DNA of 64,000 bases from an uncultured Alphaproteobacteria bacterium (GTDB lineage Bacteria; Pseudomonadota; Alphaproteobacteria; HIMB59; GCA-002718135): positions 2,074 through 66,073 of the forward strand of contig CACGJH010000006.1 in assembly GCA_902573325.1 (NCBI GenBank), read 5' to 3'. The position numbers were made by a program, and so were the translations under genes. The notes beneath the pieces are model-generated. The model made no database searches. It was not told the origin of the DNA and was given only the letters and a program-made list of their open reading frames with translations. Positions 38,361-49,183 of the stretch are shown here, one piece after another; the first letter of the stretch is position 1; each line of letters starts with the position of its first letter.

Positions 38361-39186
38361 AATAATTGAAAAATCACCTGCCAAAATAAATTTATTTTTA
38401 AAAATTATAAATAGAAGAGATGATGGTTTTCATAATATTCGTACTGGAATAACATTTATTGATCTTTTTGATGAGATAACTGTTCAACCTCACAGCAAAT
38501 TTCAAGTAATCTATACAGGTAATTTCGCTCCAAAAAACAATCTATTTGAGGACTGCATTATTGATAAATTATTTTCTTATATAAATGAAGATAAACCTAA
38601 ACTTCTTTTTACTATATCAAAAAATTTTCCTTATGAAGCTGGTTTAGGTTCTGCTTCCTCTAATGTTGCAAGTGTTATAAAAATTTTAGAAAATCTTGAG
38701 ATAATAAAAAAGAAAAATATATTTGATTATGTTGATCTTGGCTCTGATGTCCCTATTTTTTTGAATCAAAAAGATGCTCTAGTTAGAGGGAGGGGTGATT
38801 TAATTGCTAATGTTCATTTTCCAAAATATTATTTCTTACTAATTAGACCATCTTTTAAATGTTCTACAAAAAAAATGTATGATTCATTTCAACTTTCAGA
38901 TTTTGATTATAATACTGACTTTGATTTAGAAGAAATTAATGATCAAGACTCTGGAAATGATTTTGAAAAAATTCTTAAAAAAAATGAACCTGAATTTTTA
39001 TCAATTATAAATTTCTTGGAGGATTTTGACGATGTTATATTTTCAAGATTAACTGGGAGTGGTTCTTGTATTTATAGTGTATTTGAAAAAAAAGAGCATG
39101 CTATAAATGCACAAAAAAAATTTCAACAAAGCTTTTCAAATCTATGGACACATCTAAGTGAAAATAATTTGGTTAATCTATTTTAA
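38350..39186 (+). CDS. ispE: 4-diphosphocytidyl-2-C-methyl-D-erythritol kinase
   Basis: PAKINLFLKI N-terminus and the GHMP kinase motif PYEAGLGSASSN. 278 aa. Confidence 0.8.
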   Translation: MPDKIIEKSPAKINLFLKIINRRDDGFHNIRTGITFIDLFDEITVQPHSKFQVIYTGNFAPKNNLFEDCIIDKLFSYINEDKPKLLFTISKNFPYEAGLGSASSNVASVIKILENLEIIKKKNIFDYVDLGSDVPIFLNQKDALVRGRGDLIANVHFPKYYFLLIRPSFKCSTKKMYDSFQLSDFDYNTDFDLEEINDQDSGNDFEKILKKNEPEFLSIINFLEDFDDVIFSRLTGSGSCIYSVFEKKEHAINAQKKFQQSFSNLWTHLSENNLVNLF

Positions 39187-40741
39187 ATTCTTTCTTAAAT
39201 TCTTTAATTGAAAGTACTTCATTTATTGGCTTGTCCCACCTAATTCTATGAATTCGAGGAAAACGCATAGCGACACCTGATTTATGTCTCGTGCTGGGGA
39301 ATACATCGTCAAAGGCTACCTCTAAAATAATTTCTCTTTTTACTTCTCTAACAGGACCAAATTTATTGGTAGTATTATTTCTAATAAATTTATCTAAAAC
39401 TAATAGCTCTTTATCTGTGTAACCGGAATATGCTTTTCCTATAGGAACTAATTCATTTTCTTTCCAAACACCAAACGTAAAATCTGAATAATATGATGAT
39501 CTTTTGCCATGTCCTCGTTGAGCATACATTAAAATAGCATCAACTAGTTTTGGATTTTTTTTCCATTTGTACCAATACCCCTTTTTTCTTCCTGGTAAAT
39601 ATTCACTATTTTTAAGTTTAATCATTACACCTTCATTTAAATCATCATAAAAATTATTTTTATATTTAGTTAATTCTTCCCATGTTGAAAAATTAATGAT
39701 GGTAGATAAATCAATTTGATTAGTTGTATTTTCTTTTTGAAATTTTTCTAAATATTTTCTTCTTTCAACGAGAGATAATTTTCTTAAATCTTTTCCCTTA
39801 TAAAAAAGGATATCATAAGCTCTTATGAAAACAGGAAACTTTTTTTGAAGATCTTTTGACGCTTTTTTTCTATTTAATCTTTGTTGTAGATCATTAAAAC
39901 CAGAGGGCTTAAAATTTCTACCCACAAGTAATTCCCCGTCAATCACCGCATCACCTTTAGTAGTTTCAATTATTTCTGGGAATGCAGATGATATATTATC
40001 ACCTGTTCTTGAGAATAGTGAAACACTGTTTGATGAAACCATAAGCTGAACTCTGATCCCATCCCATTTATATTCTGCTTGAAATTCATTCGCGTCTAAT
40101 CTTTTAAAATCTTTTTCCTCATCAATAGGATTAGCAAGCATCATAGGATGAAATAATTTTTTAAAATCTATTTTTGGTTTTGATGTTTCATTTTTTAACC
40201 ATTGAAATAAATTTTCATATGGAAATTCTAGACCATGCCAAATTTCCTCAATCTCATTTACAGATTTATTATACAAATCAGCTAAGGCCGTTTTAACCAA
40301 TCTTTCTGAGACCCCAATTCGCAATCCACCCGTGCAAATTTTAATTAAAGTCCACCTTTCATTATTAGATAGTTCGCTAAAAACTTTACTAAACTCTGTA
40401 TTAATTTCTGACTTTTTAATTTTTTTTATATTTTCTATTAAGGTAGATAAATTTTGTGATTTACCTTTTTTATTTGTCGGCCAAATTAATGATATTGTTT
40501 CTGCTAAATCTCCAACATAGTCATATGAGTAATCAAATAAATGTTGATCTACTTGTTCATAGACAAGTTCTCTGAGTTTAGATGCTTTAATAAATTGAAA
40601 TGAAAGTTGGTCAGATAAAATTGCAAGTGCATATGCACGGTTGATATCAAGAATTTTAAAATAATCTTGAAGTAATTTAATTTTAGTATTTCGACTTGGT
40701 GTTAAAATCAAATTGTGAAGTAAGGAAGAAAATTTTTTCAT
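39173..40741 (-). CDS. ATP-dependent DNA ligase (ligase-associated DNA damage response type)
   Basis: Adenylation motif I EYKWDGIR, an OB-fold C-terminus and 522 aa. Adjacent to the MBL exonuclease, Lhr-like helicase and PdeM genes. Confidence 0.85.
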   Translation of the reverse strand: MKKFSSLLHNLILTPSRNTKIKLLQDYFKILDINRAYALAILSDQLSFQFIKASKLRELVYEQVDQHLFDYSYDYVGDLAETISLIWPTNKKGKSQNLSTLIENIKKIKKSEINTEFSKVFSELSNNERWTLIKICTGGLRIGVSERLVKTALADLYNKSVNEIEEIWHGLEFPYENLFQWLKNETSKPKIDFKKLFHPMMLANPIDEEKDFKRLDANEFQAEYKWDGIRVQLMVSSNSVSLFSRTGDNISSAFPEIIETTKGDAVIDGELLVGRNFKPSGFNDLQQRLNRKKASKDLQKKFPVFIRAYDILFYKGKDLRKLSLVERRKYLEKFQKENTTNQIDLSTIINFSTWEELTKYKNNFYDDLNEGVMIKLKNSEYLPGRKKGYWYKWKKNPKLVDAILMYAQRGHGKRSSYYSDFTFGVWKENELVPIGKAYSGYTDKELLVLDKFIRNNTTNKFGPVREVKREIILEVAFDDVFPSTRHKSGVAMRFPRIHRIRWDKPINEVLSIKEFKKEFKID

Positions 40742-41727
40742 TCTATTTCTTCATCACTTCTTCCTTGGATGGAAAGGGGCTTTGAAACAAGATTTTGTTT
40801 CTTACAATAATAAACTAATGCATCTTCCTGACCATGTGTAATAAGAATATTTTTCGCTTTTGATTTTTTAATTGTATCTAGTAATTCATTCCAATCGCTA
40901 TGATCACTAATAATTAAAGGTAATTCAATACCTTGTTGTTTTGCTCTTTGCTTAACTGTCATCCATCCACTTGCCATACAAATAATAGGATTAGGAAATC
41001 GTCTTGACCAACGATCCTTTAATGCTGAAGGAGGGGCAATAATTATTTTACCCTCATAAAAGCTTTTATCCTTTGAAGAAACTTTTTCAAACTTTCCAAT
41101 ATTAATTTTTTCTTTTGAATAATATTGGCATAACTTTTCTAGAGAGCCATGAATATAAATTGTCTCATTATATTTGTGCTGACGTAAAAGATTCATCACT
41201 CTTTGCGCTTTTCCAAGTGCATACGCACCAACAATATGACAATTATTTTTATTTATCTTTACAGATCGAATGAGTTTTTGAATTTCATCTTTGGGATCTG
41301 GATGTTGAAATATGGGTAATCCAAATGTTGCTTCGGTAATTAAAGTATCACATTTAACTAGTTTGAAATTTTTACATGTTTCGTCTTTTCCTACTTTATA
41401 ATCACCTGTGATGACTAAACGATGATTATTTTTTTCAATTAAAACTTGAGCACTTCCTAAAATATGTCCTGCAGGGTATAATGTAAAATCAAAGTTTTTA
41501 ATCGAATATTTTTGCCCGTATCTAAGAGAAGTAAATTTCTTTGCACATTTATCTCCGTAGCGAATTTTCATTATGTCTATTGTCTGTCTAGTAGCAATAA
41601 CATGATCATGTCCAAATCGAGCATGATCTGCGTGACCATGTGTAATAATTGCTGTTTTTTTCGGCAATATTGGATCTATATGTACATTTATATCTTTGAT
41701 AAATAGCTGATGGTTAATGAAATCCAT
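40738..41727 (-). CDS. Ligase-associated DNA damage response exonuclease (metallo-beta-lactamase fold)
   Basis: THGHADH metal motif, 329 aa, and a 4-nt overlap with the ligase gene. Confidence 0.8.
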   Translation of the reverse strand: MDFINHQLFIKDINVHIDPILPKKTAIITHGHADHARFGHDHVIATRQTIDIMKIRYGDKCAKKFTSLRYGQKYSIKNFDFTLYPAGHILGSAQVLIEKNNHRLVITGDYKVGKDETCKNFKLVKCDTLITEATFGLPIFQHPDPKDEIQKLIRSVKINKNNCHIVGAYALGKAQRVMNLLRQHKYNETIYIHGSLEKLCQYYSKEKINIGKFEKVSSKDKSFYEGKIIIAPPSALKDRWSRRFPNPIICMASGWMTVKQRAKQQGIELPLIISDHSDWNELLDTIKKSKAKNILITHGQEDALVYYCKKQNLVSKPLSIQGRSDEEIE

Positions 41728-44160
41728 ATGAATATAAATAAATCGAATCCCTTATTATTACACCCCCTAAATAAGTGGATGAAGAAAAAAAAATGGTCCT
41801 GGTTTCCTCATCAAATTGAAACGTTTCATCATGTTCGAACTGGGTCTGATGTTGTTGTATTTGCTCCTACTGGTGCTGGCAAAACATTAACAGGGTTTAT
41901 TAATCCAATAGATGATTTAATAAAATTAAAAAAATTTAAAGGTCTTCATACTCTCTATATTTCTCCATTAAAATCTCTTGCAAACGATATTGTGAGAAAT
42001 TTAGAGAAACCTATTAAAGAGCTTGATTTAAATATTTCATTTCAAGTAAGAACAGGAGACACAACACCATATAAAAAACAAAAACAAAAACAAAAACCTC
42101 CTAATATCCTTATTACAACTCCAGAGTCACTTGCATTATTAAATTCGTATGAGAATGCGAAAGAATTTTTTCACAATCTTAAATATATAATTATTGATGA
42201 GATACACACTTTTTTGGATAATAAGAGAGCTGATCTTCTAAGTTTAAATATTGAAAGACTACAAACTTTCTCTCCAAATTTACAACGAATAGGCTTGTCA
42301 GCAACTCTCAAGAATAAACAAGATGCCAAAAAATGGCTTTGCCGCAAAAAACCAAAAATAATTTTTTATGAAAATTCAGTTTTACCTAAGATTAAAATTC
42401 TAGAATCAAAAGAACGCATCCCTTGGTCTGGTCATATGGCTACGTATTCTATTAATGAAATCTACAAAGAAATAATGAAATCAAAATTAACTATTATTTT
42501 TGTTAATACGAGGGCACAAGCCGAATATATGTTTAAAAACTTATGGCTAATTAATAAGAAAAAATTAAAAATTGCTGTTCACCATGGTTCATTAGAAAAA
42601 AACTTACGTTTAAAAGTAGAAAATAATCTTAGCAAAGGATTAGTTGACTGTGTTGTTGCGACCTCTTCTTTAGAACTCGGATTAGATTATGGAGATGTAG
42701 AAAAAATTATTCAAGTTGGAGCACCTAAAGGAATTAATAGATTATTACAGCGTGTAGGAAGATCAAATCATAATTTAAATACACCTTCAAAAGCAATTTT
42801 AGTACCCACTAATCGTTTTGAATTTATCGAAGCAAAAGCTGCTATTGAAGAAATAAAAAAAAATAACTTAGATAAAATAGATTTAAAAGAAGGAAGTTTT
42901 GATGTTGTAGCTCAACATATTTTTGCAACGGCTTGTGCGGGGCAATTTGATATTAATGATCTCTACAAAGAAATTATCAAAGCATATCCATACAAAAAAT
43001 TAAAACTTAATGATTTTAAACAATTGATTAATCTCATACAAGATGGCGGATATGTTTTAAAAAATTATGATCAATTTAAGAGAATCTTCCAACTGAGAGA
43101 AAATAAAAATATTTATAAGCTAGTAAATAAAAGAGAAACACGAAAATACCGCATGAATGTTGGAACAATAATTGAAAATCCTATGTTAAAAATAAAACTT
43201 GGAACGAAAACGTTAGGGAATATAGAAGAAGTTTTTGTTCAAAATCTTTCTCAAGGTGATTCATTCATATTTGCAGGTCAAGTACTAGAATTTCAATTAA
43301 TGAAAAATAATTTAGTACAAGTTAAAAGAAGTAAATCTTTAATTTCAAAAATTCCGTCATACTCTGGAGGCAGAATGCCATTATCAACAAATTTGGCTAA
43401 CTCAGTTAGGGCTTTATTGGCAAAAAGTAATATGCGGGATTTATATCCAGAGCAAATTACTGAATGGTTAAAAAGACAAAAAAATATATCTAAAATTCCT
43501 AAAAAAGATGAATATCTAGTGGAACAATTCCCTCGAAAAAAAAATTTTTATACTGTTATCTATACTTTTGCAGGATGGCATGCCAATCAAACACTAGGAT
43601 TTTTATTGCTTAGAGGCTTCAAGGAATTTGATTATAAACCTCTAGGTTTTGTCGCAAATGATTATGCTATTGTTTTATGGTCTTTAAAAGAAGTTAAAGA
43701 AATCAAAACAATTCTAAATTTAGGATTGTTAGATAAACATTTAGATAATTATCTTGAAGAAACCTCAATAGTCAAAAGATTATTTAGAGATAATGCTATT
43801 ATATCTTGTTTAATAGAAAGAAGGTTGCCAGGGATGGAAAAAACTGGAAAGCAAGTTTTATTTAGTTCTGATCTAATTTATACAGTTCTAAAAAAAAATG
43901 AACCAGATCATATTCTTTTAAAATCATCATATGAAGACGCAAAAAAGAATATGATTGATTATGATAGACTTAGAGAAATCTTAAAAAAAATTGATAAAAA
44001 AATTATATTAAAGAAACTTACATGTATCTCACCATTGGCTGTTCCAATTATTCTTGAAATAAATAGAGAAAATTTATCAAAAAAAGAAACTGATGAATAC
44101 ATTTTAGAGGACTTAGAAAATGAAATATTAAAAGAGGCTAATGTACTATCAATCAATTAA
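41710..44160 (+). CDS. Ligase-associated DEXH-box helicase (Lhr-core-like)
   Basis: Walker A APTGAGKT, DEIH box, SATL, and a conserved Lhr-type C-terminal domain. An alternative start at ATG 41728 would abut the divergent exonuclease start. Confidence 0.85.
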   Translation: MVNEIHMNINKSNPLLLHPLNKWMKKKKWSWFPHQIETFHHVRTGSDVVVFAPTGAGKTLTGFINPIDDLIKLKKFKGLHTLYISPLKSLANDIVRNLEKPIKELDLNISFQVRTGDTTPYKKQKQKQKPPNILITTPESLALLNSYENAKEFFHNLKYIIIDEIHTFLDNKRADLLSLNIERLQTFSPNLQRIGLSATLKNKQDAKKWLCRKKPKIIFYENSVLPKIKILESKERIPWSGHMATYSINEIYKEIMKSKLTIIFVNTRAQAEYMFKNLWLINKKKLKIAVHHGSLEKNLRLKVENNLSKGLVDCVVATSSLELGLDYGDVEKIIQVGAPKGINRLLQRVGRSNHNLNTPSKAILVPTNRFEFIEAKAAIEEIKKNNLDKIDLKEGSFDVVAQHIFATACAGQFDINDLYKEIIKAYPYKKLKLNDFKQLINLIQDGGYVLKNYDQFKRIFQLRENKNIYKLVNKRETRKYRMNVGTIIENPMLKIKLGTKTLGNIEEVFVQNLSQGDSFIFAGQVLEFQLMKNNLVQVKRSKSLISKIPSYSGGRMPLSTNLANSVRALLAKSNMRDLYPEQITEWLKRQKNISKIPKKDEYLVEQFPRKKNFYTVIYTFAGWHANQTLGFLLLRGFKEFDYKPLGFVANDYAIVLWSLKEVKEIKTILNLGLLDKHLDNYLEETSIVKRLFRDNAIISCLIERRLPGMEKTGKQVLFSSDLIYTVLKKNEPDHILLKSSYEDAKKNMIDYDRLREILKKIDKKIILKKLTCISPLAVPIILEINRENLSKKETDEYILEDLENEILKEANVLSIN

Positions 44161-44794
44161 TTTTGGTAATGAAGAATTTCATGCTTATCCAAATAAATCT
44201 CTTTATTGGAAAAGATTAAATACCCTGATCGTATCAGATTTACATATGGGAAAATCGATTAGTTATGCAAAGAATAAGCAATTCTTGCCTCCGTATGATA
44301 CAAAAGAAATATTAAACAAAATTTTTGTTAGTCTAGATAAAATTAAACCAAGTAATTTAATTATAGTTGGTGATTTATTACACGATGTTTTTTCAACTTT
44401 GAGCATAAAAGATCAAGATTATAAAAATCTTAGTCAATATATGAAAAATACTGATTTCATATGGATCAAGGGTAATCATGATAAAAATATACAAATTGAA
44501 GGTTTTAAAAATTTTACAAATTACAAAATTGGTAAATTTTTATTTACACACATACCTATCAAAACATCTTTATTTCAAATTTGTGGTCACTATCATCCAA
44601 AAGTAAAAATTGTTCACAGAGGGAAAACTATTTTTAAAACATCATTTGTACATAATAAAAAAATATTAATTTTACCAAGTTTTGGAATTTTAACGGGTGG
44701 ACTGGATGTTCATTCTAAACAAATAAGTGATGTATTAGGTAAGAATAATTTGAGTATTTATCCTGTGGGACAGGATAAAGTTTATAAATTATAA
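44141..44794 (+). CDS. pdeM: Ligase-associated metallophosphoesterase PdeM
   Basis: Calcineurin-like motifs SDLHMGK, GDLLHD, GNHD and GHYH. 217 aa. Overlaps the helicase end. Confidence 0.8.
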   Translation: MYYQSINFGNEEFHAYPNKSLYWKRLNTLIVSDLHMGKSISYAKNKQFLPPYDTKEILNKIFVSLDKIKPSNLIIVGDLLHDVFSTLSIKDQDYKNLSQYMKNTDFIWIKGNHDKNIQIEGFKNFTNYKIGKFLFTHIPIKTSLFQICGHYHPKVKIVHRGKTIFKTSFVHNKKILILPSFGILTGGLDVHSKQISDVLGKNNLSIYPVGQDKVYKL

Positions 44795-45210
44795 TTAAAG
44801 TAATTGATAATTACAATGCTAACTAAAATAATAAAATTCAATATAAATAATAAAACAGAAAGCAAATGCATATATTTAAAATTAGATGATGCTTTTTGAT
44901 CGCCATCTAATTCTTTATCTCTTAAATTATTAATTTTGGGTGTTAAATAATTTCTATTAATAATAAAACTTACAGCCACTATTACTAATAAAATAGAATT
45001 TAAATTATTAGCTGAAATATAACTAAGGATTAAAGATAAAAGAGCTATTATAAACCCAAATAAAAACATTCTAGGAAAAATTGTTCTTAAAAATTTACTG
45101 CTGGCGTTAGTACTTAATGTGGCAAAGACTGAGGGCGAGACGACAGCCATAAAGAAAATCATAGATCCTATAAGGATTGTTACTAAAAAATTAAGAGTAT
45201 AGATTATCAT
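44782..45210 (-). CDS. DUF4149 (TMEM205-like, CopD-clan) membrane protein
   Basis: 142 aa with four TM helices. The N-terminal pattern …FFMAVVSPSVF…FLRTIFPRMF is typical of DUF4149. Assigned from memory of the family. Confidence 0.5.
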   Translation of the reverse strand: MIIYTLNFLVTILIGSMIFFMAVVSPSVFATLSTNASSKFLRTIFPRMFLFGFIIALLSLILSYISANNLNSILLVIVAVSFIINRNYLTPKINNLRDKELDGDQKASSNFKYMHLLSVLLFILNFIILVSIVIINYFNYNL

Positions 45211-45217
45211 CAGTTAA

Positions 45218-45242
45218 AATTGCTCTTATATAAAGAGCAATT
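45218..45242 (-). other. Perfect 10-bp stem / 5-nt loop hairpin between the TPR and DUF4149 genes
   Basis: AATTGCTCTT at 45218-45227 pairs with AAGAGCAATT at 45233-45242. The stem ends 8 nt upstream of the DUF4149 start codon. On the minus strand it is followed by TTTTAAC. Confidence 0.45.
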
Positions 45243-45249
45243 GTTATAT

Positions 45250-45720
45250 TTATGAATTATCAATTGCTGTTTTTAATTTTCTATATTCCATAGAATTAGT
45301 TCCAGCTATTGTTTCTAATTTTAATAACATTTCATTAGCTTTATTCATATTACCAAGGGTGATGTAAAGTTCACCAAGATATTCATGTGCTCCTAAATGT
45401 TCAGGATTTGCGTCTAAAGCAATTCTATATGCTTCAAAGGCCTTATCTAGATTTGGCTCACTGTGCTTTCTGTAACTAAAACCAAGTAAGTTATATACAT
45501 CAGCTTTTTTTTCACCTAAGTCTTTACGCTTCGCAATTTTTTCAAGTAATTTAATAGATTTATCAAATTTCTTATAATAAACTAATTCGTAAGCCTTATC
45601 GTATAATTTTGTAACTTGTTCGCTAGCTGAAATGCTAGTTGCACTATCATCTGAGCTAGTACTAGCGGCAAATGATGTGGAACTTATAAATAATAATGTA
45701 AGAAATATTCTAATCATCAA
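45250..45720 (-). CDS. Small exported TPR protein
   Basis: Signal peptide MMIRIFLTLLFISSTSFAAS and two or three TPR motifs (…YNLLGFSYRK…AYRIALDANPEH…). Confidence 0.65.
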   Translation of the reverse strand: MMIRIFLTLLFISSTSFAASTSSDDSATSISASEQVTKLYDKAYELVYYKKFDKSIKLLEKIAKRKDLGEKKADVYNLLGFSYRKHSEPNLDKAFEAYRIALDANPEHLGAHEYLGELYITLGNMNKANEMLLKLETIAGTNSMEYRKLKTAIDNS

Positions 45721-45774
45721 GATGAGATATGTGGGTTTAAACCAATTTCAATATTTGTATGTGAATTAATTTAA

Positions 45775-46233
45775 TTAATGGCAGGCAATATTATATTTTT
45801 TTAATCTGTAATAATTATATGGCCACGGCGTTAGAAAGCCTGCAAGAAGCATTATAGGTATTACCCACCATACAAGTTTAGCGCCACCCATAATGATCCA
45901 GTCAACTGCATTCATGGCTATTTCCATAGACACCATTGAAATTAAACTCATTCCTATGGCTGTTTTAAAAGCTTTGCTGAAAATCATTTGTCTTGATAAA
46001 ACGACAGTCTCTAAAATGATGCTAGTAATAATACCATTAATGATTGCTAGGATCATAATATAAAGAGTAGGCCAAGGAATGCCAGTTAATTGAAAATAGA
46101 GTATGGTTCCTAAATCGCCAATGCTACATCCTAGCAAACACCAAGCAGTATTTTTAGCGCTTCTTCTCCATGTATGTTTACATTTCCAATGAAAACGTGG
46201 AGCTGGTTTTTTTAATGTTTCAGCTACAGACAT
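45775..46233 (-). CDS. DUF4396-like integral membrane protein
   Basis: 152 aa with four TM helices. A Cys/His-rich N-terminal segment (HWKCKHTW…AWCLLGCSIGDLG) resembles the DUF4396 signature. Confidence 0.5.
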   Translation of the reverse strand: MSVAETLKKPAPRFHWKCKHTWRRSAKNTAWCLLGCSIGDLGTILYFQLTGIPWPTLYIMILAIINGIITSIILETVVLSRQMIFSKAFKTAIGMSLISMVSMEIAMNAVDWIIMGGAKLVWWVIPIMLLAGFLTPWPYNYYRLKKYNIACH

Positions 46234-46238
46234 TTAAA

Positions 46239-47669
46239 TTATATTCCTTGTTTGAATTCGAAAGTCTTTTTTATATCATTAATTTCATAACTATCAATTG
46301 TGCCATTAGTCCATTTAATTGATATATTTTTAATTACTTCATCTGGGCGTAAACCATAATGTGCTATTGGTTCCATTTGACATAAATATCCTGAGCCAGC
46401 ATCAATAGTCTTGGCGTGATTTCTTAAATTTGTATGTAATGTAACAGTTGCACCTCTAGCTGGAGCACCAAAGGTGTTAAGAGGTTTAATTCTAATATAG
46501 TTTGTATTTGATACATTTGCTTTAAATAAACTCAGTGGTTGAGCTCCAGATTCACCATGTGAAATAAGTAATTCTAAAATTCCATCTCCATCAATATCAG
46601 CAACAGCAGCACCTGTTCCTAGACCCTGAGTTTCAAGTGCTTCGTCTAACTTGATTTCTTCTAAGTTTCCTTCATCAAGAATACGAAAAAGTTTATTTGG
46701 TTGACCGATATTATTTAAAAAAATTTCATCATAACCATCATTATCAAAATCTGCTGATATAACTGTCCGTATTCTACTAGGTGATCTAAAATCTAATGAA
46801 GACATATCAAGAAAAGATTCTTTTTGTTTTACAAAAATACGATGATAACCTTCCCAGTTACTTGTTATAATATCAAGTTCGCCTCTATACAAAAAATCAG
46901 TTAAAGCGGTTCCGCGACCATTTTGAAAAGTATCTTGCACATTTTTTTCAATCGCAATATCATCAAAATTACCATTAATATTTTTATATAAGAAATTTGG
47001 ACCTCTCTCATTAGCTGCAAATATATCCATATTATCAGAAACTATATGTCCTGAAATTACCGCTCTTCCTCCAGTTATTTGATCAATTCCAAGCATTGGA
47101 GCTAAATCTTCAACTTCATTTTCTTTAATTTCGTAAAATCTAGTAGGACCTCCATAATTAGCAACATATATGCCGTACTTTCCCGATCCATTTCTGTCTA
47201 CACAAACAACAGATCTGCCTGCGGTTAAATTTAAATTTTCTAAATTTTTTTCTAACTCAAAATAATCGAATATTTTGTTATTGTTATCCAGTAATCTGTC
47301 AGAGTATTTTTTTTCTCCACTATACGTATCAGTATTTAAGAAATAAATTTCTTCAAAACCATCCTGATCAATATCACAAGCTGATACACCAATAGTATTT
47401 CTATCTTCATCAACAAATAAAGGATCTTGAATTATATTAATTAGTTTTCCATTTTTATAGCTAAGAGCTAAATTAGAGTAACCAAAACCTGCAACAACAA
47501 ATTCAAAAGCTCCATCTTTATTAAAGTCAGTTACTGAAACTCCATAGCTTAATCGATCATTATTATTTTCGATTATATCAGAAATATTAGAGAAAAATTC
47601 TGCCTTAGCCATATTAGATATCAATATAATAAAAATAAAAATTAACTTTTGCATTTCAAGTGTTTTCAA
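46239..47669 (-). CDS. CRTAC1-family protein (FG-GAP/VCBS repeats plus ASPIC/UnbV C-terminal domain), exported
   Basis: Signal peptide. Six D-x-D/N-x-D-G Ca-binding-like repeats (e.g. DFNKDGAFE, DIDQDGFEE, DFDNDGYDE, DIDGDGILE). C-terminal GATVTL…DAGSGYLCQMEPIAHYGL. Confidence 0.75.
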   Translation of the reverse strand: MKTLEMQKLIFIFIILISNMAKAEFFSNISDIIENNNDRLSYGVSVTDFNKDGAFEFVVAGFGYSNLALSYKNGKLINIIQDPLFVDEDRNTIGVSACDIDQDGFEEIYFLNTDTYSGEKKYSDRLLDNNNKIFDYFELEKNLENLNLTAGRSVVCVDRNGSGKYGIYVANYGGPTRFYEIKENEVEDLAPMLGIDQITGGRAVISGHIVSDNMDIFAANERGPNFLYKNINGNFDDIAIEKNVQDTFQNGRGTALTDFLYRGELDIITSNWEGYHRIFVKQKESFLDMSSLDFRSPSRIRTVISADFDNDGYDEIFLNNIGQPNKLFRILDEGNLEEIKLDEALETQGLGTGAAVADIDGDGILELLISHGESGAQPLSLFKANVSNTNYIRIKPLNTFGAPARGATVTLHTNLRNHAKTIDAGSGYLCQMEPIAHYGLRPDEVIKNISIKWTNGTIDSYEINDIKKTFEFKQGI

Positions 47670-48355
47670 TTTGCCAATCTGATAAAAATATCGCCCATTC
47701 CAAAATTAAGTTCTTCAAGAGGCATACTATTTCTAGCTTCGCACATGGGTCCAGTTATTTGGTCATTTTTTATATAATCTAAATCGTAAGCATCACATTT
47801 TTTTGGGTTATGTAATAAACCAATAACAAGTTTGTTATCTACTGAGTATGTATATTCTTTATTTAATTCATTACCTTTACAAAAATAATCTCTATTAACT
47901 AGTTCAGGAAAATCATTTTTGTTACATGGATTATCAATAACGATTGTATAGATATCTTTTGATTGATCTTTAAAATCAACATTGATTTTTTTTGTTTCTG
48001 AATATTTCATTACATCGCATAAGCAAGGCCAACAACATTTATAATATTGACCACAAATTTTTTCATCATTTTCTGAATTAGTAAGAAAAATTTCATCTGG
48101 TTGAGCATCTGGAGGAATTAGAGAACCTGAGACAGCACAGTATAACTTATTAAATTGCATAAACTCTTCATATTCTAAGTTTTGATCTAAAATATATTTA
48201 AAAAATCTTGGTCCTGCTGCATTTCTATTCCCATCAGGAAAAATAGTTGACCAATCGTTAACAAGTCTTTCGTACATTTTTTCGGTATTCGCATTAACCT
48301 GAGTCATGGATGAAAAAATTAATAGGCATGAAATTATTGTAAGTAATTTAGGCAT
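47666..48355 (-). CDS. Exported cysteine-rich protein of unknown function
   Basis: Signal peptide (…TQVNA|NTE) and 10 Cys in the mature part, including C-x5-CC-x2-C-x-C (CGQYYKCCWPCLCD, nt 48017-48037 for CCWPCLC). 4-nt overlap with the CRTAC1 gene. Confidence 0.6.
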   Translation of the reverse strand: MPKLLTIISCLLIFSSMTQVNANTEKMYERLVNDWSTIFPDGNRNAAGPRFFKYILDQNLEYEEFMQFNKLYCAVSGSLIPPDAQPDEIFLTNSENDEKICGQYYKCCWPCLCDVMKYSETKKINVDFKDQSKDIYTIVIDNPCNKNDFPELVNRDYFCKGNELNKEYTYSVDNKLVIGLLHNPKKCDAYDLDYIKNDQITGPMCEARNSMPLEELNFGMGDIFIRLAN

Positions 48356-48517
48356 AGAAATTAAATAGTTTTAGCTTTAAAAATGTAAATCCCTTGTTTT
48401 GAAGTAATCTTGTATCAATAAGGATCACTTTTTAAGCTTTTTAATACTATTTATGGTATTGTCGCACTTGAAGAATTTGACTTATTTTATGCTAAATACT
48501 AGAGAGTGATCATAATT

Positions 48518-48592
48518 TGGGGCGTCGCCAAGCGGTAAGGCACCGGTTTTTGGAGTCGGCATTCGTAGGTTCGAATCCTACCGCCCCAGCCA
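48518..48592 (+). tRNA. tRNA-Gln (anticodon TTG)
   Basis: Hand-folded cloverleaf. Acceptor TGGGGCG/CGCCCCA, anticodon loop TTTTGGA, T-arm GTAGG-TTCGAAT-CCTAC, and an encoded CCA. Closely resembles E. coli tRNA-Gln. Confidence 0.9.
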
Positions 48593-48595
48593 AAT

Positions 48596-49183
48596 TTAAA
48601 ATCTTTTTTGTATTTCGTTTAGATAGTTAACACTTTTCCAATATAAATCTTCAAATCTTTGGAAAATGTTAATTTTAATTATTTCTTTTTCTTTAATACC
48701 CCAAATATTTTTTTTATCTATCCAACCTCTGTAATCACCAAATGACACTAAGCACCAATCAATTTTACATTTTTCTAAAAACACAATATTTCCACTTCCT
48801 ATTTCTCCAATAACATTACCATTTAAAGTGTTTAATAATTTTATAGTTTTATTATCATTTGATAAAACAATACCGGTTCTAATACCAGATATTAAACTTT
48901 TATGAATCCATCCAAAATTTTTCTGAAAATCTTCTACTTTTCTCCAATCTTCATACTCTTCTAATACTTTTAAGGGGTAATTTTTTTTTACGTATTTAAT
49001 TTCAATAGGATAATTCTTACTTGGGCCAACACGTATATTTGCATCATTAGATTTTAAAGATATATACCTTGGAATTTCTAGGCCAGTTTCTTTACCAATT
49101 TCTGCATTACATATTTGGGAAAAAATAATTATTGAAATAAATGCGATTATGATTTGCATGCTAATATTTTTATAAAGTAGCAT
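48596..49183 (-). CDS. Exported protein with two bacterial SH3-like domains
   Basis: Signal peptide and two repeats of about 60 aa ending in W-x-K/L-V…GWI motifs (…DWRKVEDFQKNFGWIHKSLI; …DWCLVSFGDYRGWIDKKNIW). Confidence 0.6.
   Translation of the reverse strand: MLLYKNISMQIIIAFISIIIFSQICNAEIGKETGLEIPRYISLKSNDANIRVGPSKNYPIEIKYVKKNYPLKVLEEYEDWRKVEDFQKNFGWIHKSLISGIRTGIVLSNDNKTIKLLNTLNGNVIGEIGSGNIVFLEKCKIDWCLVSFGDYRGWIDKKNIWGIKEKEIIKINIFQRFEDLYWKSVNYLNEIQKRF

What the first reader, a model, noticed from the sequence alone, without database searches (positions are those of the whole stretch)
44782..48355. Five-gene minus-strand cluster of exported or membrane proteins with no assigned function
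The gene order is: Cys-rich secreted protein, CRTAC1-family FG-GAP/UnbV protein, DUF4396-like membrane protein, small secreted TPR protein, DUF4149 (CopD-clan/TMEM205-like) membrane protein. The junctions are a 4-nt overlap, a 5-nt gap, a 54-nt gap and a 39-nt gap. Every product has a signal peptide or TM helices. None has a known biochemical role in bacteria. In a genome this compact, keeping a co-oriented 3.6-kb block of unknowns suggests a coherent envelope function. The Cys/His-rich segments and the CopD-clan member make metal or redox handling one speculative reading; Ca-dependent surface binding by the FG-GAP protein is another. This is my best candidate for an undescribed system, but the operon status and the function are inference only.
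Basis: partly seen in the sequence, partly recalled or inferred. Interest (0 to 1): 0.6.

Follow-up and report, generated by a model that had tools for sequence, protein, structure and literature searches.

The report
CRTAC1 homologue with new cysteine-rich partner
A SAR11-type marine bacterium carries a conserved cluster of exported and membrane proteins whose core is a close relative of animal cartilage acidic protein 1 (CRTAC1) paired with a previously undescribed cysteine-rich protein; marine protists encode the same two parts fused in one protein, so they very likely work together, but their function is still unknown.

Summary
Five co-oriented minus-strand genes lie at 44782-48355, with the stated junctions, and every product has a signal peptide or TM helices. 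Four of the five domain calls are confirmed.

The cluster is not one equally linked five-gene unit.
- **Core pair.** The core is the 229-aa Cys-rich protein plus a true CRTAC1 orthologue (E 1e-106 to murine CRTAC1, PDB 9ETN). The two genes are adjacent in every SAR11-like locus whose contig reaches both (83 of 84 fetched), in both gene orders. They are also adjacent in a GC-54% marine bacterium. Marine protist proteins fuse them in both domain orders.
- **Cys-rich domain.** It matches nothing in Pfam, NCBIfam, PDB or BFVD, although the model is confident (pLDDT 90). It has 8 near-invariant Cys, and covariation indicates disulfides. It also occurs in giant-virus MAGs, usually fused to a DUF2237-like domain.
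- **DUF4396 and TPR.** They join the pair only in the window's subclade (53 loci), probably as a four-gene operon ending at a hairpin or terminator.
- **DUF4149.** With DoxX in some genomes, it looks like a separate adjacent unit.

Function is unresolved. Copper or another thiophilic metal handled by DUF4396 is the best-supported guess. Overall: a real, conserved and undescribed module of moderate to high interest.

The parts
47666..48355 (-). Gene 1: secreted 229-aa Cys-rich protein. It founds an undescribed domain family with motifs FPxxNRNA, CxVSGS, CCxPCxCD, NPC and GMGDIF.
   Evidence: ORF. Signal-like N-terminus ending VNA|N. No Pfam, NCBIfam or PDB sequence hit. AF2 pLDDT 90, pTM 0.85. 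No Foldseek match in PDB or BFVD. 845 homologues found and 491 clusters at 50% identity. Among 104 full-length domains, R44, N45, C73, G77, C107, C108, P110, C111, D114, P143, C144, G219, M220, G221 and F224 are 100% conserved. C101 and C187 are always present together or absent together: 44 with both, 60 with neither, 0 mixed.
46239..47669 (-). Gene 2: secreted CRTAC1 orthologue, a Ca-binding FG-GAP beta-propeller plus UnbV/ASPIC domain with no EGF domain. The likely true start is the ATG at 47654.
   Evidence: Pfam FG-GAP_3, FG-GAP and UnbV_ASPIC. phmmer against PDB finds 9etn_A, cartilage acidic protein 1, at E 1.4e-106 over query residues 33-462. Four DxDxDG motifs at residues 48, 99, 307 and 358. 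Junction sequence.
45775..46233 (-). Gene 3: DUF4396 inner-membrane protein with an invariant TM CxxxC motif (C32, C36) plus H15, E104, N108 and C-terminal H152.
   Evidence: Pfam DUF4396 at 8e-37. Hydrophobic segments. Alignment with actinobacterial homologues that carry His-rich tails. Median 97% identity across 53 loci. Extremely abundant in marine metagenomes.
45250..45720 (-). Gene 4: small secreted TPR protein, probably the last gene of the operon.
   Evidence: TPR_19 at 27.8 bits and other sub-threshold TPR families. Signal-like N-terminus with no lipobox Cys. Present in 51 of 51 loci that reach it.
45218..45242 (-). Conserved hairpin (AATTGCTCTT-loop-AAGAGCAATT, about -11 kcal/mol) between the TPR and DUF4149 genes. 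It is terminator-like or attenuator-like. It sits where DoxX-bearing relatives have a canonical terminator followed by DoxX.
   Evidence: The terminator scan lists this palindrome at 45218-45242, on the + strand. The stem is conserved in nearly all DoxX-less loci. In 8 DoxX-bearing loci, TPR is followed by AAGCCC...GGGCTT plus a T-run.
44782..45210 (-). Gene 5: DUF4149 (TMEM205-like) membrane protein with multiple TM segments. Probably a separate unit, paired with DoxX in some relatives.
   Evidence: Pfam DUF4149 at 4e-14. TM segments. Present in 49 of 49 type-A loci that reach it. Also upstream of CRTAC1 in 4 type-B loci at 36% identity.
48356..48393 (-). Conserved promoter-like element directly upstream of the Cys-rich start codon: GGGATTTACA, 16 nt, TATTTAAT, 4 nt (TTCT), ATG. 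It may give a very short or absent leader.
   Evidence: Read from the sequences. It is conserved even in L011, where the rest of the upstream region differs. The consensus scan did not call it. This is inference only.

Best explanation
**Shown**
- The locus encodes an extracytoplasmic two-protein module: a bacterial orthologue of CRTAC1 (Ca2+-binding FG-GAP beta-propeller plus UnbV/ASPIC domain) and a new Cys-rich protein, encoded by tightly coupled genes.
- Their linkage is conserved across SAR11 lineages in both gene orders, and in an unrelated marine bacterium.
- Marine protists encode the two as single fused proteins, in both domain orders.

**Inferred**
- The two proteins form a periplasmic or surface complex. 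The disulfide-stabilised Cys-rich domain would act as the specificity or ligand-handling subunit on the Ca-loaded propeller. Its invariant R44, N45, S76, D114, R208 and GMGD residues suggest a binding or catalytic site.
- In the window's subclade the pair was joined in a four-gene operon with a DUF4396 membrane protein and a secreted TPR protein.
- DUF4396 most likely moves or buffers a thiophilic metal, with copper the best guess, for or alongside the complex.
- The TPR protein would act as a periplasmic scaffold or chaperone.
- DUF4149, together with a DoxX/MauE-like protein in some genomes, is a neighbouring and probably separately transcribed membrane unit. It is recurrently but more loosely associated.
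- The ligand and the biochemical reaction are unknown.
For: **Pair linkage**
- In 83 of the 84 SAR11-like loci fetched (L001-L084) both genes are found side by side; the exception, L004, is a 3-kb contig that ends 0.5 kb past the Cys-rich gene.
- Type A loci run Cys-rich then CRTAC1; type B loci run CRTAC1 then Cys-rich, with a 4-nt overlap in 10 loci; one locus is divergent.
- L085 (GC 54%) has CRTAC1 directly followed by the Cys-rich gene.

**Fusions**
- P0201 and the P0260 cluster (10 members, 5 of them MMETSP transcripts) run Cys-rich then CRTAC1.
- P0432, P0436, P0438, P0440, P0452, P0453 and P0454 run CRTAC1 then the Cys-rich core.

**CRTAC1 orthology**
- 9etn_A matches at E 1e-106 by sequence.
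- The protist fusion model P0201 matches 9etn_A at Foldseek E 2e-50, TM 0.81.

**Cys-rich domain is real, folded and extracytoplasmic**
- pLDDT 90.
- Signal peptide.
- Perfect C101/C187 co-occurrence.

**Operon structure**
- Tight junctions.
- Conserved hairpin or terminator after TPR.

**Co-conservation of DUF4396 and TPR**
- Seen in 53 loci, down to 66% Cys-rich identity.

**Metal reading of DUF4396**
- Invariant CxxxC, His and Glu, with His-rich N- and C-terminal tails in Streptomyces homologues.
- On one Streptomyces plasmid its neighbours are a DUF305 protein and a four-helix-bundle copper-binding protein.
- It flanks a metal-resistance island in Acidihalobacter (PMC7760498).
- One Cys-rich family cluster is fused to a plastocyanin-like domain.
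Against: - There is no direct evidence of a physical complex. The AF2 model of the natural fusion folds both domains, but the linker is disordered and pTM is only 0.65, so docking is undetermined.
- The Cys-rich domain also occurs without CRTAC1: in giant-virus MAGs, in one GC-54% contig (L091), and fused to DUF2237, rhodanese or GNAT domains. CRTAC1 is therefore not its only partner.
- DUF4396 and TPR are absent from the type-B loci, so they are accessory at best.
- The copper link rests on one of three annotated plasmid contexts and one literature remark.
- No canonical copper genes are in the cluster.
- No expression data were available.
Confidence: 0.5

Rival explanations
1. All five genes form one copper (or other thiophilic-metal) homeostasis or resistance system. 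The Cys-rich protein would be a periplasmic metal binder, and DUF4396 and DUF4149 (CopD-clan) the membrane transporters.
For: - DUF4396 has an invariant CxxxC with His and Glu, and its homologues have His-rich tails.
- On a Streptomyces plasmid it sits among a DUF305 protein and a four-helix-bundle copper-binding protein.
- It flanks a metal-resistance island.
- A DUF4149 protein lies in the copper-responsive xan cluster of A. fumigatus.
- One Cys-rich family member is fused to a plastocyanin-like domain.
Against: - The cysteines of the Cys-rich domain covary like disulfide partners.
- No YHS, TRASH or HMA family is detected even at E<=1 in 50 members.
- The conserved core pair exists without DUF4396 in type-B SAR11.
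- CRTAC1 has no known transition-metal role.
- A hairpin or terminator separates DUF4149 from the other four genes.
- XanD deletion had no effect on any known xan-cluster metabolite.
Confidence: 0.17
2. The cluster is an extracytoplasmic thiol/disulfide or reduced-sulfur handling system. DoxX/MauE-like and DUF4396 (CxxxC) membrane proteins would pass redox equivalents to or from the Cys-rich protein. This resembles MauE/MauD maturing the disulfide-rich methylamine dehydrogenase small subunit, or the DoxX-rhodanese complexes of mycobacteria.
For: - A DoxX gene (weak MauE hit) sits between TPR and DUF4149 in 9 type-A loci, including the most divergent ones.
- Two Cys-rich family clusters are fused to rhodanese.
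- The secreted protein has 8-10 conserved Cys.
- An exported MsrB lies near the pair in some type-B loci.
- The MauE and mycobacterial DoxX analogies come from my own knowledge and were not tested.
Against: - DoxX is missing in the window and in most type-A loci, and it lies behind a terminator.
- Rhodanese fusions are rare.
- No thioredoxin-fold or Dsb-like gene is in the cluster.
Confidence: 0.12
3. The CRTAC1/Cys-rich pair is a Ca-dependent surface binding or adhesion (matrix- or glycan-binding) module like eukaryotic CRTAC1. DUF4396, TPR and DUF4149 would be functionally unrelated neighbours kept only by synteny in a compact genome.
For: - The protein is an orthologue of an extracellular matrix protein and has four Ca motifs.
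- A fasciclin gene lies between the pair in about 13 type-B loci.
- The protist fusions end in C-terminal hydrophobic, anchor-like segments.
- DUF4396 and TPR are absent in type B.
Against: - The 5-nt CRTAC1-DUF4396 junction is kept, and there is no terminator before TPR, across 53 loci down to 66% identity.
- DUF4149 recurs next to the pair in a second, independent arrangement.
- SAR11 is a free-living planktonic cell with no known adhesion lifestyle (own knowledge).
Confidence: 0.15
4. The module is part of a light- or photo-oxidative-stress-related envelope function of surface-ocean microbes.
For: - The Cys-rich domain is repeatedly fused or adjacent to DUF2237. DUF2237 is a marine-biased family statistically tied to proteorhodopsin and phototrophy (PMC5932025; bioRxiv 10.64898/2025.12.11.693642).
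- Type-B pairs are flanked by photolyase or cryptochrome-type genes.
- A giant-virus copy lies 5 kb from a viral rhodopsin.
- An FG-GAP gene on marine viral contigs (link to pelagiphage not established) peaks in daytime in one preprint.
Against: - All of this evidence is associative.
- There is no DUF2237 in the window or in any SAR11 locus flank.
- Neighbours on opposite strands in SAR11 say little about function.
- No chromophore-binding feature was found.
Confidence: 0.06

Closest known systems
Vertebrate cartilage acidic protein 1 (CRTAC1/ASPIC/LOTUS; murine structure PDB 9ETN)
   Same: Gene 2 aligns over about 430 residues at E 1.4e-106. It shares the FG-GAP propeller, the DxDxDG Ca motifs, the UnbV/ASPIC domain with the GSGYLCQMEPxAH(F/Y)GL motif, and secretion. 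The protist fusion model superposes on 9ETN at TM 0.81.
   Different: There is no C-terminal EGF-like domain. The protein is bacterial and periplasmic. It is encoded next to, and in protists fused with, a Cys-rich domain that has not been described for animal CRTAC1. The animal functions (Nogo-receptor antagonism, matrix protein) cannot apply.
Bacterial and cyanobacterial CRTAC1 homologues (Redruello et al. 2010, Gene 456:1, as cited in PMC8536980 and PMC3123361); PGAP 'CRTAC1 family protein'
   Same: It is already known that CRTAC1-like proteins exist in bacteria. Gene 2 is one of them.
   Different: The library searched holds no report of a conserved partner gene, of the fusions, or of the SAR11 operon. 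Elsewhere, CRTAC1-family genes sit in other contexts, for example between hydrazine-synthase-like subunit genes (PMC12758564).
Copper-handling membrane and periplasmic proteins (CopD clan; CopM-like DUF305; Csp-like four-helix-bundle copper-binding proteins)
   Same: DUF4149 is placed in the CopD clan (Pfam clan assignment from memory, not tested). A DUF4396 homologue sits among a DUF305 protein and a four-helix-bundle copper-binding gene on a Streptomyces plasmid. DUF4396 has CxxxC, His and Glu residues typical of metal sites.
   Different: No CopA, CopC, CopD, CueO or CusF, and no metal regulator, is in or next to the cluster. No metal-binding family is detected in the Cys-rich protein.
MauE/MauD-type maturation of a disulfide-rich periplasmic subunit; DoxX membrane oxidoreductases
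   Same: A small DoxX/MauE-like membrane protein is encoded beside a secreted protein with 8-10 conserved Cys in 9 related loci.
   Different: DoxX is absent from the window and lies behind a terminator. There is no MauD-like or thioredoxin-like partner. This is an analogy from memory only.
YHS/TRASH-type Cys metal-binding modules
   Same: The Cys-rich protein has a single Cys knuckle (CxVSG), a beta-hairpin, then CCxPCxC at the start of a helix. This resembles CPVSG...FCCxxC YHS-type proteins as I recall them.
   Different: No YHS or TRASH match even at E<=1 in 50 family members. The cysteines covary like disulfides. It should not be filed as a member.

Membership tests
CRTAC1 family | FG-GAP/VCBS beta-propeller followed by an UnbV_ASPIC domain | tested here: met
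   Pfam FG-GAP_3 4e-22, FG-GAP 2e-11, UnbV_ASPIC 1e-10.
CRTAC1 family | Full-length sequence similarity to animal CRTAC1 | tested here: met
   9etn_A at E 1.4e-106, 360 bits, query residues 33-462 against chain residues 18-487.
CRTAC1 family | Dx[DN]xDG Ca-binding loops in the propeller | tested here: met
   Four motifs at residues 48, 99, 307 and 358. Actual Ca binding was not tested.
CRTAC1 family | C-terminal EGF-like Ca-binding domain (vertebrate form) | tested here: not met
   No EGF family in Pfam, and the protein ends shortly after UnbV_ASPIC. Bacterial homologues are generally described without it (my recollection of Redruello 2010, cited; the paper itself was not read).
DUF4396 (PF14342) | Match to the family profile above the curated cut-off over the whole domain | tested here: met
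   127 bits against a cut-off of 27, profile positions 1-139 of 141.
DUF4149 (PF13664, TMEM205-like) | Match above the curated cut-off | tested here: met
   53 bits against a cut-off of 24.6.
CopD clan (for DUF4149) | Detectable relationship to CopD and its metal-ligand residues | not tested
   Only DUF4149 itself was hit at E<=0.1. The clan assignment is recalled from Pfam.
TPR proteins | TPR repeat profile above cut-off | tested here: met
   TPR_19 at 27.8 bits against a cut-off of 25. Eleven other TPR-type families are below cut-off. All NCBIfam TPR equivalogs are far below their cut-offs.
YHS/TRASH/HMA metal-binding domains (for the Cys-rich protein) | Profile match to a known Cys metal-binding family | tested here: not met
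   No family for the window protein at E<=0.1. None of these families appears in 50 diverse members at E<=1.
Single five-gene operon | No terminator or promoter between the genes, and co-transcription | tested here: inconclusive
   The first three junctions are tight. There is a conserved hairpin after TPR, and a canonical terminator there in DoxX-bearing relatives. No RNA data were available.
Known anti-phage defence systems | Match to PADLOC models | tested here: not met
   No hits for any of the five proteins.
Functionally linked gene pair (Rosetta-stone criterion) for Cys-rich plus CRTAC1 | The two proteins occur as one fused polypeptide in other genomes, and as neighbours in distant lineages | tested here: met
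   Fusions in both orders across 9 protein clusters. Adjacency in two gene orders in SAR11 and in a GC-54% bacterium.

The most novel reading that the evidence does not exclude
The Cys-rich protein defines a new, widespread marine extracytoplasmic domain that is the ancestral working partner of CRTAC1. It occurs in SAR11, other bacteria, protists and giant viruses. The SAR11 operon, with its DUF4396 metal-site membrane protein and TPR protein, would be the minimal bacterial form of a so-far unknown envelope system. Solving it would reveal the original biochemical function of the CRTAC1 family, including the human protein.
Probability: 0.3. Interest if true: 0.75.

Novelty: new variant of a known kind. 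Interest (0 to 1): 0.55.

Why it matters
- **Ecology.** SAR11 is the most abundant bacterial group in the ocean and its genomes are extremely streamlined. A 3.6-kb block of conserved unknowns kept in every examined genome of a subclade is therefore likely to matter. DUF4396 is 97% identical across species-level genomes.
- **A handle on CRTAC1.** CRTAC1 is a biomedically studied animal protein (osteoarthritis biomarker, Nogo-receptor antagonist) whose ancestral function is unknown. A partner domain linked by gene neighbourhood in bacteria and by fusion in protists gives a concrete, testable lead.
- **A family to curate.** The Cys-rich domain has about 490 clusters at 50% identity, a confident predicted fold, and no match in Pfam, NCBIfam, PDB or BFVD. 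It deserves to be curated as a new family.
- **A second open problem.** Its recurrent link to DUF2237, a light-associated marine unknown, ties two open problems together.

Tried and rejected
- **Locus search.** The 50-sequence alignment A2 was too divergent for the search for related loci. A1 was used instead, so the genome scan returned only SAR11-like genomes, capped at 80 of 460 confirmed hits.
- **Docking.** The AF2 model of the natural fusion P0201 gave pTM 0.65 with a disordered linker, so it was inconclusive. I prepared synthetic Cys-rich-linker-CRTAC1 concatenates with a paired alignment.
- **DUF4396 homologue search.** It returned only near-identical SAR11 proteins and gave no functional names.
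- **Plasmid contexts for DUF4396.** There were only four, and one was informative.
- **Exact look-ups.** Look-ups of the window's own proteins found no record, so the source assembly was not identified.
- **RNA and defence searches.** Rfam found only the two tRNAs. PADLOC found nothing.
- **Other Cys-rich contexts.** L091 and L092 showed no CRTAC1 neighbour.
- **YHS/TRASH idea.** I rejected it as a membership claim.
- **Literature.** There is no paper on this cluster. The SAR11 'unknome' preprint does not mention these families.

Full report
**Observation.** They are the Cys-rich protein (47666-48355), CRTAC1-like (46239-47669), DUF4396 (45775-46233), TPR (45250-45720) and DUF4149 (44782-45210), all on the minus strand. 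The junctions are -4, +5, +54 and +39 nt.
- Pfam confirms FG-GAP_3, FG-GAP and UnbV_ASPIC, DUF4396 (8e-37), TPR_19 (just above cut-off) and DUF4149 (4e-14).
- The Cys-rich protein matches nothing in Pfam or NCBIfam.
- All five products have a signal-like N-terminus or TM segments, and the propeller has four DxDxDG calcium motifs.
- The 4-nt overlap depends on a TTG start. A conserved ATG at 47654 would give an 11-nt gap.
- Composition (GC about 29%) is uniform with the surroundings.

**Surroundings.**
- Downstream, the DUF4149 gene converges on a ligase-associated DNA-damage cluster (ligase, exonuclease, Lhr, PdeM). This cluster is syntenic in relatives.
- Upstream lie a plus-strand tRNA-Gln (48518-48592), an exported SH3 protein and a tRNA-Arg.
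- Rfam finds only the tRNAs.

**Conservation.** I anchored on the Cys-rich protein. It has 845 homologues, and a scan of species-representative genomes gave 80 further loci. I annotated these with phmmer. Two arrangements exist.
- *Type A* (53 loci, 66-95% Cys-rich identity, including the window's closest relatives) always runs Cys-rich, CRTAC1, DUF4396, TPR, (DoxX), DUF4149.
  - All five genes are present in all 49 loci long enough to show them.
  - Median identities to the window are 90, 93, 97, 87 and 85%.
  - DoxX is present in 9 loci, including the most divergent ones.
- *Type B* (30 loci, Pelagibacteraceae including HIMB2226, 52-55% identity) runs CRTAC1 then Cys-rich.
  - In 10 loci the two genes overlap by 4 nt. 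In about 13 loci an antisense fasciclin gene lies between them. One locus is divergent.
  - There is no DUF4396 or TPR.
  - A 36%-identical DUF4149 lies upstream in 4 loci, tightly packed with a histidine phosphatase and CRTAC1.
- A GC-54% marine contig also has CRTAC1 (57-67% identity, with a frameshift in the assembly) directly followed by a 40%-identical Cys-rich gene.

So the invariant unit is the pair. DUF4396 and TPR are subclade-specific additions. DUF4149 is a recurrent but looser neighbour.

**Transcription units.** In DoxX-less loci the 37-39-nt spacer after TPR carries a conserved 10-bp hairpin of about -11 kcal/mol (window 45218-45242). In all 8 DoxX-bearing loci examined, TPR is followed by a canonical GC-rich stem plus T-run, and then by DoxX-DUF4149 with a gap of 0-7 nt (DoxX-DUF4149 spacing). 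The most economical reading is a four-gene operon plus a separate (DoxX-)DUF4149 unit. A promoter-like element conserved right before the Cys-rich ATG is inferred from the sequences. No expression data could be consulted.

**The CRTAC1 gene.** It is not merely 'CRTAC1-family'. phmmer against PDB sequences gives cartilage acidic protein 1 (9ETN) at E 1.4e-106 over 430 residues. The protist fusion model matches the murine CRTAC1 crystal structure at TM 0.81. Bacterial homologues of CRTAC1 have been reported before (Redruello et al. 2010, cited in PMC8536980 and PMC3123361). Their function is unknown.

**The Cys-rich protein.**
- *Size and diversity of the family.* A profile search of 1.84 billion cluster representatives finds 491 clusters at E<=1e-3.
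- *Conservation.* Among 104 full-length domains, the following are at least 95% conserved: R44, N45, C73, S76, G77, S78, G102, C107, C108, P110, C111, C113, D114, P143, C144, C159, C205, R208 and G219-M220-G221-x-I223-F224.
- *Structure.* AF2 gives a confident model (pLDDT 90, pTM 0.85) with no Foldseek match in PDB or BFVD and no PDB sequence match.
- *Disulfides.* C101 and C187 are present together in 44 sequences and absent together in 60, with no mixed cases. C113 and C205 are lost together in 4 sequences. This is the signature of disulfide partners in an exported protein. It makes a Cys-thiolate metal cluster less likely, though not excluded.

**Fusions.**
- *With CRTAC1.* Pfam and HMM scans of family members show natural fusions with CRTAC1 in both orders.
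  - Full Cys-rich domain then CRTAC1: P0201 and the P0260 cluster, which has 10 members, 5 of them MMETSP protist transcripts.
  - CRTAC1 then the Cys-rich core (profile positions about 25-147): seven further clusters from JGI, Logan and MERC.
  - This mirrors the two bacterial gene orders and is classical Rosetta-stone evidence that the two proteins act together.
- *With other domains.* DUF2237 (many clusters), rhodanese (2), a plastocyanin-like domain (1) and GNAT (1).
- *In giant viruses.* In IMG/VR, 19 loci, mostly giant-virus MAGs, carry the domain. It is usually fused to a weak DUF2237-like C-terminus, and once sits beside a separate DUF2237 gene. There is no CRTAC1 nearby.
- *What is known of DUF2237.* It is a marine-biased, rhodopsin-associated unknown (PMC5932025; bioRxiv 10.64898/2025.12.11.693642).

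**Physical docking.** This could not be settled. In the AF2 model of fusion P0201 both domains fold well, but the linker (233-254) is disordered and pTM is 0.65.

**DUF4396.**
- It is the most conserved gene of the block and is very abundant in marine metagenomes.
- Aligned with actinobacterial homologues, it keeps H15, T21, W22, C32-x3-C36, G39, E104, N108, P138, N140 and a C-terminal His. The Streptomyces proteins add His-rich N- and C-terminal tails.
- On one Streptomyces plasmid it lies among a DUF305 protein and a four-helix-bundle copper-binding protein. Two other plasmid contexts are uninformative.
- The only paper mentioning DUF4396 places it at the edge of a metal-resistance island (PMC7760498).
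- This makes a thiophilic-metal role, with copper the best guess, the leading but weakly supported reading.
- DUF4149 has no functional literature in bacteria. A fungal member sits in the copper-responsive xan cluster but was dispensable for biosynthesis.

**Interpretation.**
- *High confidence (about 0.8).* The Cys-rich protein and the CRTAC1 orthologue form a functional, probably physical, extracytoplasmic pair.
- *Moderate confidence.* In this subclade they are co-expressed with DUF4396 and TPR.
- *Low confidence (about 0.3).* DUF4396 supplies or removes a metal for the system.
- *Alternatives that remain open.* A thiol-redox role, a purely adhesive role with unrelated neighbours, and a light-linked role.
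- No known defence system or characterised pathway claims these genes.

**Novelty.**
- Bacterial CRTAC1 homologues are known.
- In the libraries and literature available here, the partner domain, the two-order neighbourhood, the two-order fusions, the giant-virus and DUF2237 connection, and the SAR11 operon are not described.
- I rate it a new variant of a known kind, namely a two-component form of the CRTAC1 family built around a new domain. A real chance remains that it is something categorically new once the function is found.

Noticed in passing
window 39173-44794: A ligase-associated DNA-damage-response cluster: ATP-dependent ligase, RMMBL-type exonuclease, Lhr helicase and PdeM phosphoesterase (TIGR04123 at 3e-51). 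The 3' end of PdeM overlaps the 3' end of the convergent DUF4149 gene by 13 nt. The cluster is syntenic with the operon in relatives L002 and L003.
   Followed up: partly
window 48518-48592 (tRNA-Gln, +) and loci L011, L014: The tRNA-Gln upstream of the operon looks like a rearrangement point. In L014 one end of the tRNA (the end distal to the operon) is replaced by unrelated sequence, and in L011 the tRNA is absent. The promoter-like element just before the Cys-rich ATG is kept in both. Genes further upstream differ between relatives (glycosyltransferases and carbamoyltransferase in L002 and L003). This suggests an island-integration or hypervariable border.
   Followed up: no
L086, L087, L093-L111 (IMG/VR, mostly GVMAG contigs, GC 23-36%): Giant-virus MAGs encode the Cys-rich domain, mostly as proteins of about 400-450 aa with an N-terminal TM and a weak DUF2237-like C-terminal domain. 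In L108 the DUF2237 is a separate adjacent gene. L086 and L087 also carry a eukaryote-type topoisomerase II, a cathepsin and a viral rhodopsin about 5 kb away.
   Followed up: partly
L055 7386-10678 and similar type-B loci; L059 3331-7823: In Pelagibacteraceae the CRTAC1/Cys-rich pair keeps other exported neighbours. These are a DUF4174 protein overlapping the CRTAC1 start, an antisense fasciclin-domain protein between the two genes, a signal-peptide-bearing histidine phosphatase, an SRAP protein and an exported MsrB. The pair is flanked by photolyase or cryptochrome-type genes.
   Followed up: partly
L091 1264-3634 (GC 54% contig): Two tandem paralogues of the Cys-rich domain (462 aa and about 325 aa) with no CRTAC1 nearby, next to pyruvate carboxylase. 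The N-terminal 220 residues of the first have no family.
   Followed up: no
window 48596-49183 (-): An exported protein with two bacterial SH3 domains (SH3_4 at 4e-24) sits between tRNA-Gln and tRNA-Arg. It is a syntenic neighbour of the cluster in L002 but is separated from it by the opposite-strand tRNA.
   Followed up: no
window 48394-48517: About 120 nt of non-coding sequence between the tRNA-Gln and the promoter-like element is well conserved among close relatives. It has no Rfam match. It probably holds the divergent tRNA promoter, but a small RNA or regulatory leader is not excluded.
   Followed up: partly
literature: PMC12758564; bioRxiv 10.1101/2025.10.05.680483: CRTAC1-family FG-GAP genes lie between hydrazine-synthase-like subunit genes in non-anammox Planctomycetota. 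An FG-GAP repeat gene on marine viral contigs (the authors discuss pelagiphage but state direct evidence is lacking) shows a daytime transcription peak and a tropical oligotrophic distribution. It might be related to the SAR11 CRTAC1 gene, but this was not checked.
   Followed up: no
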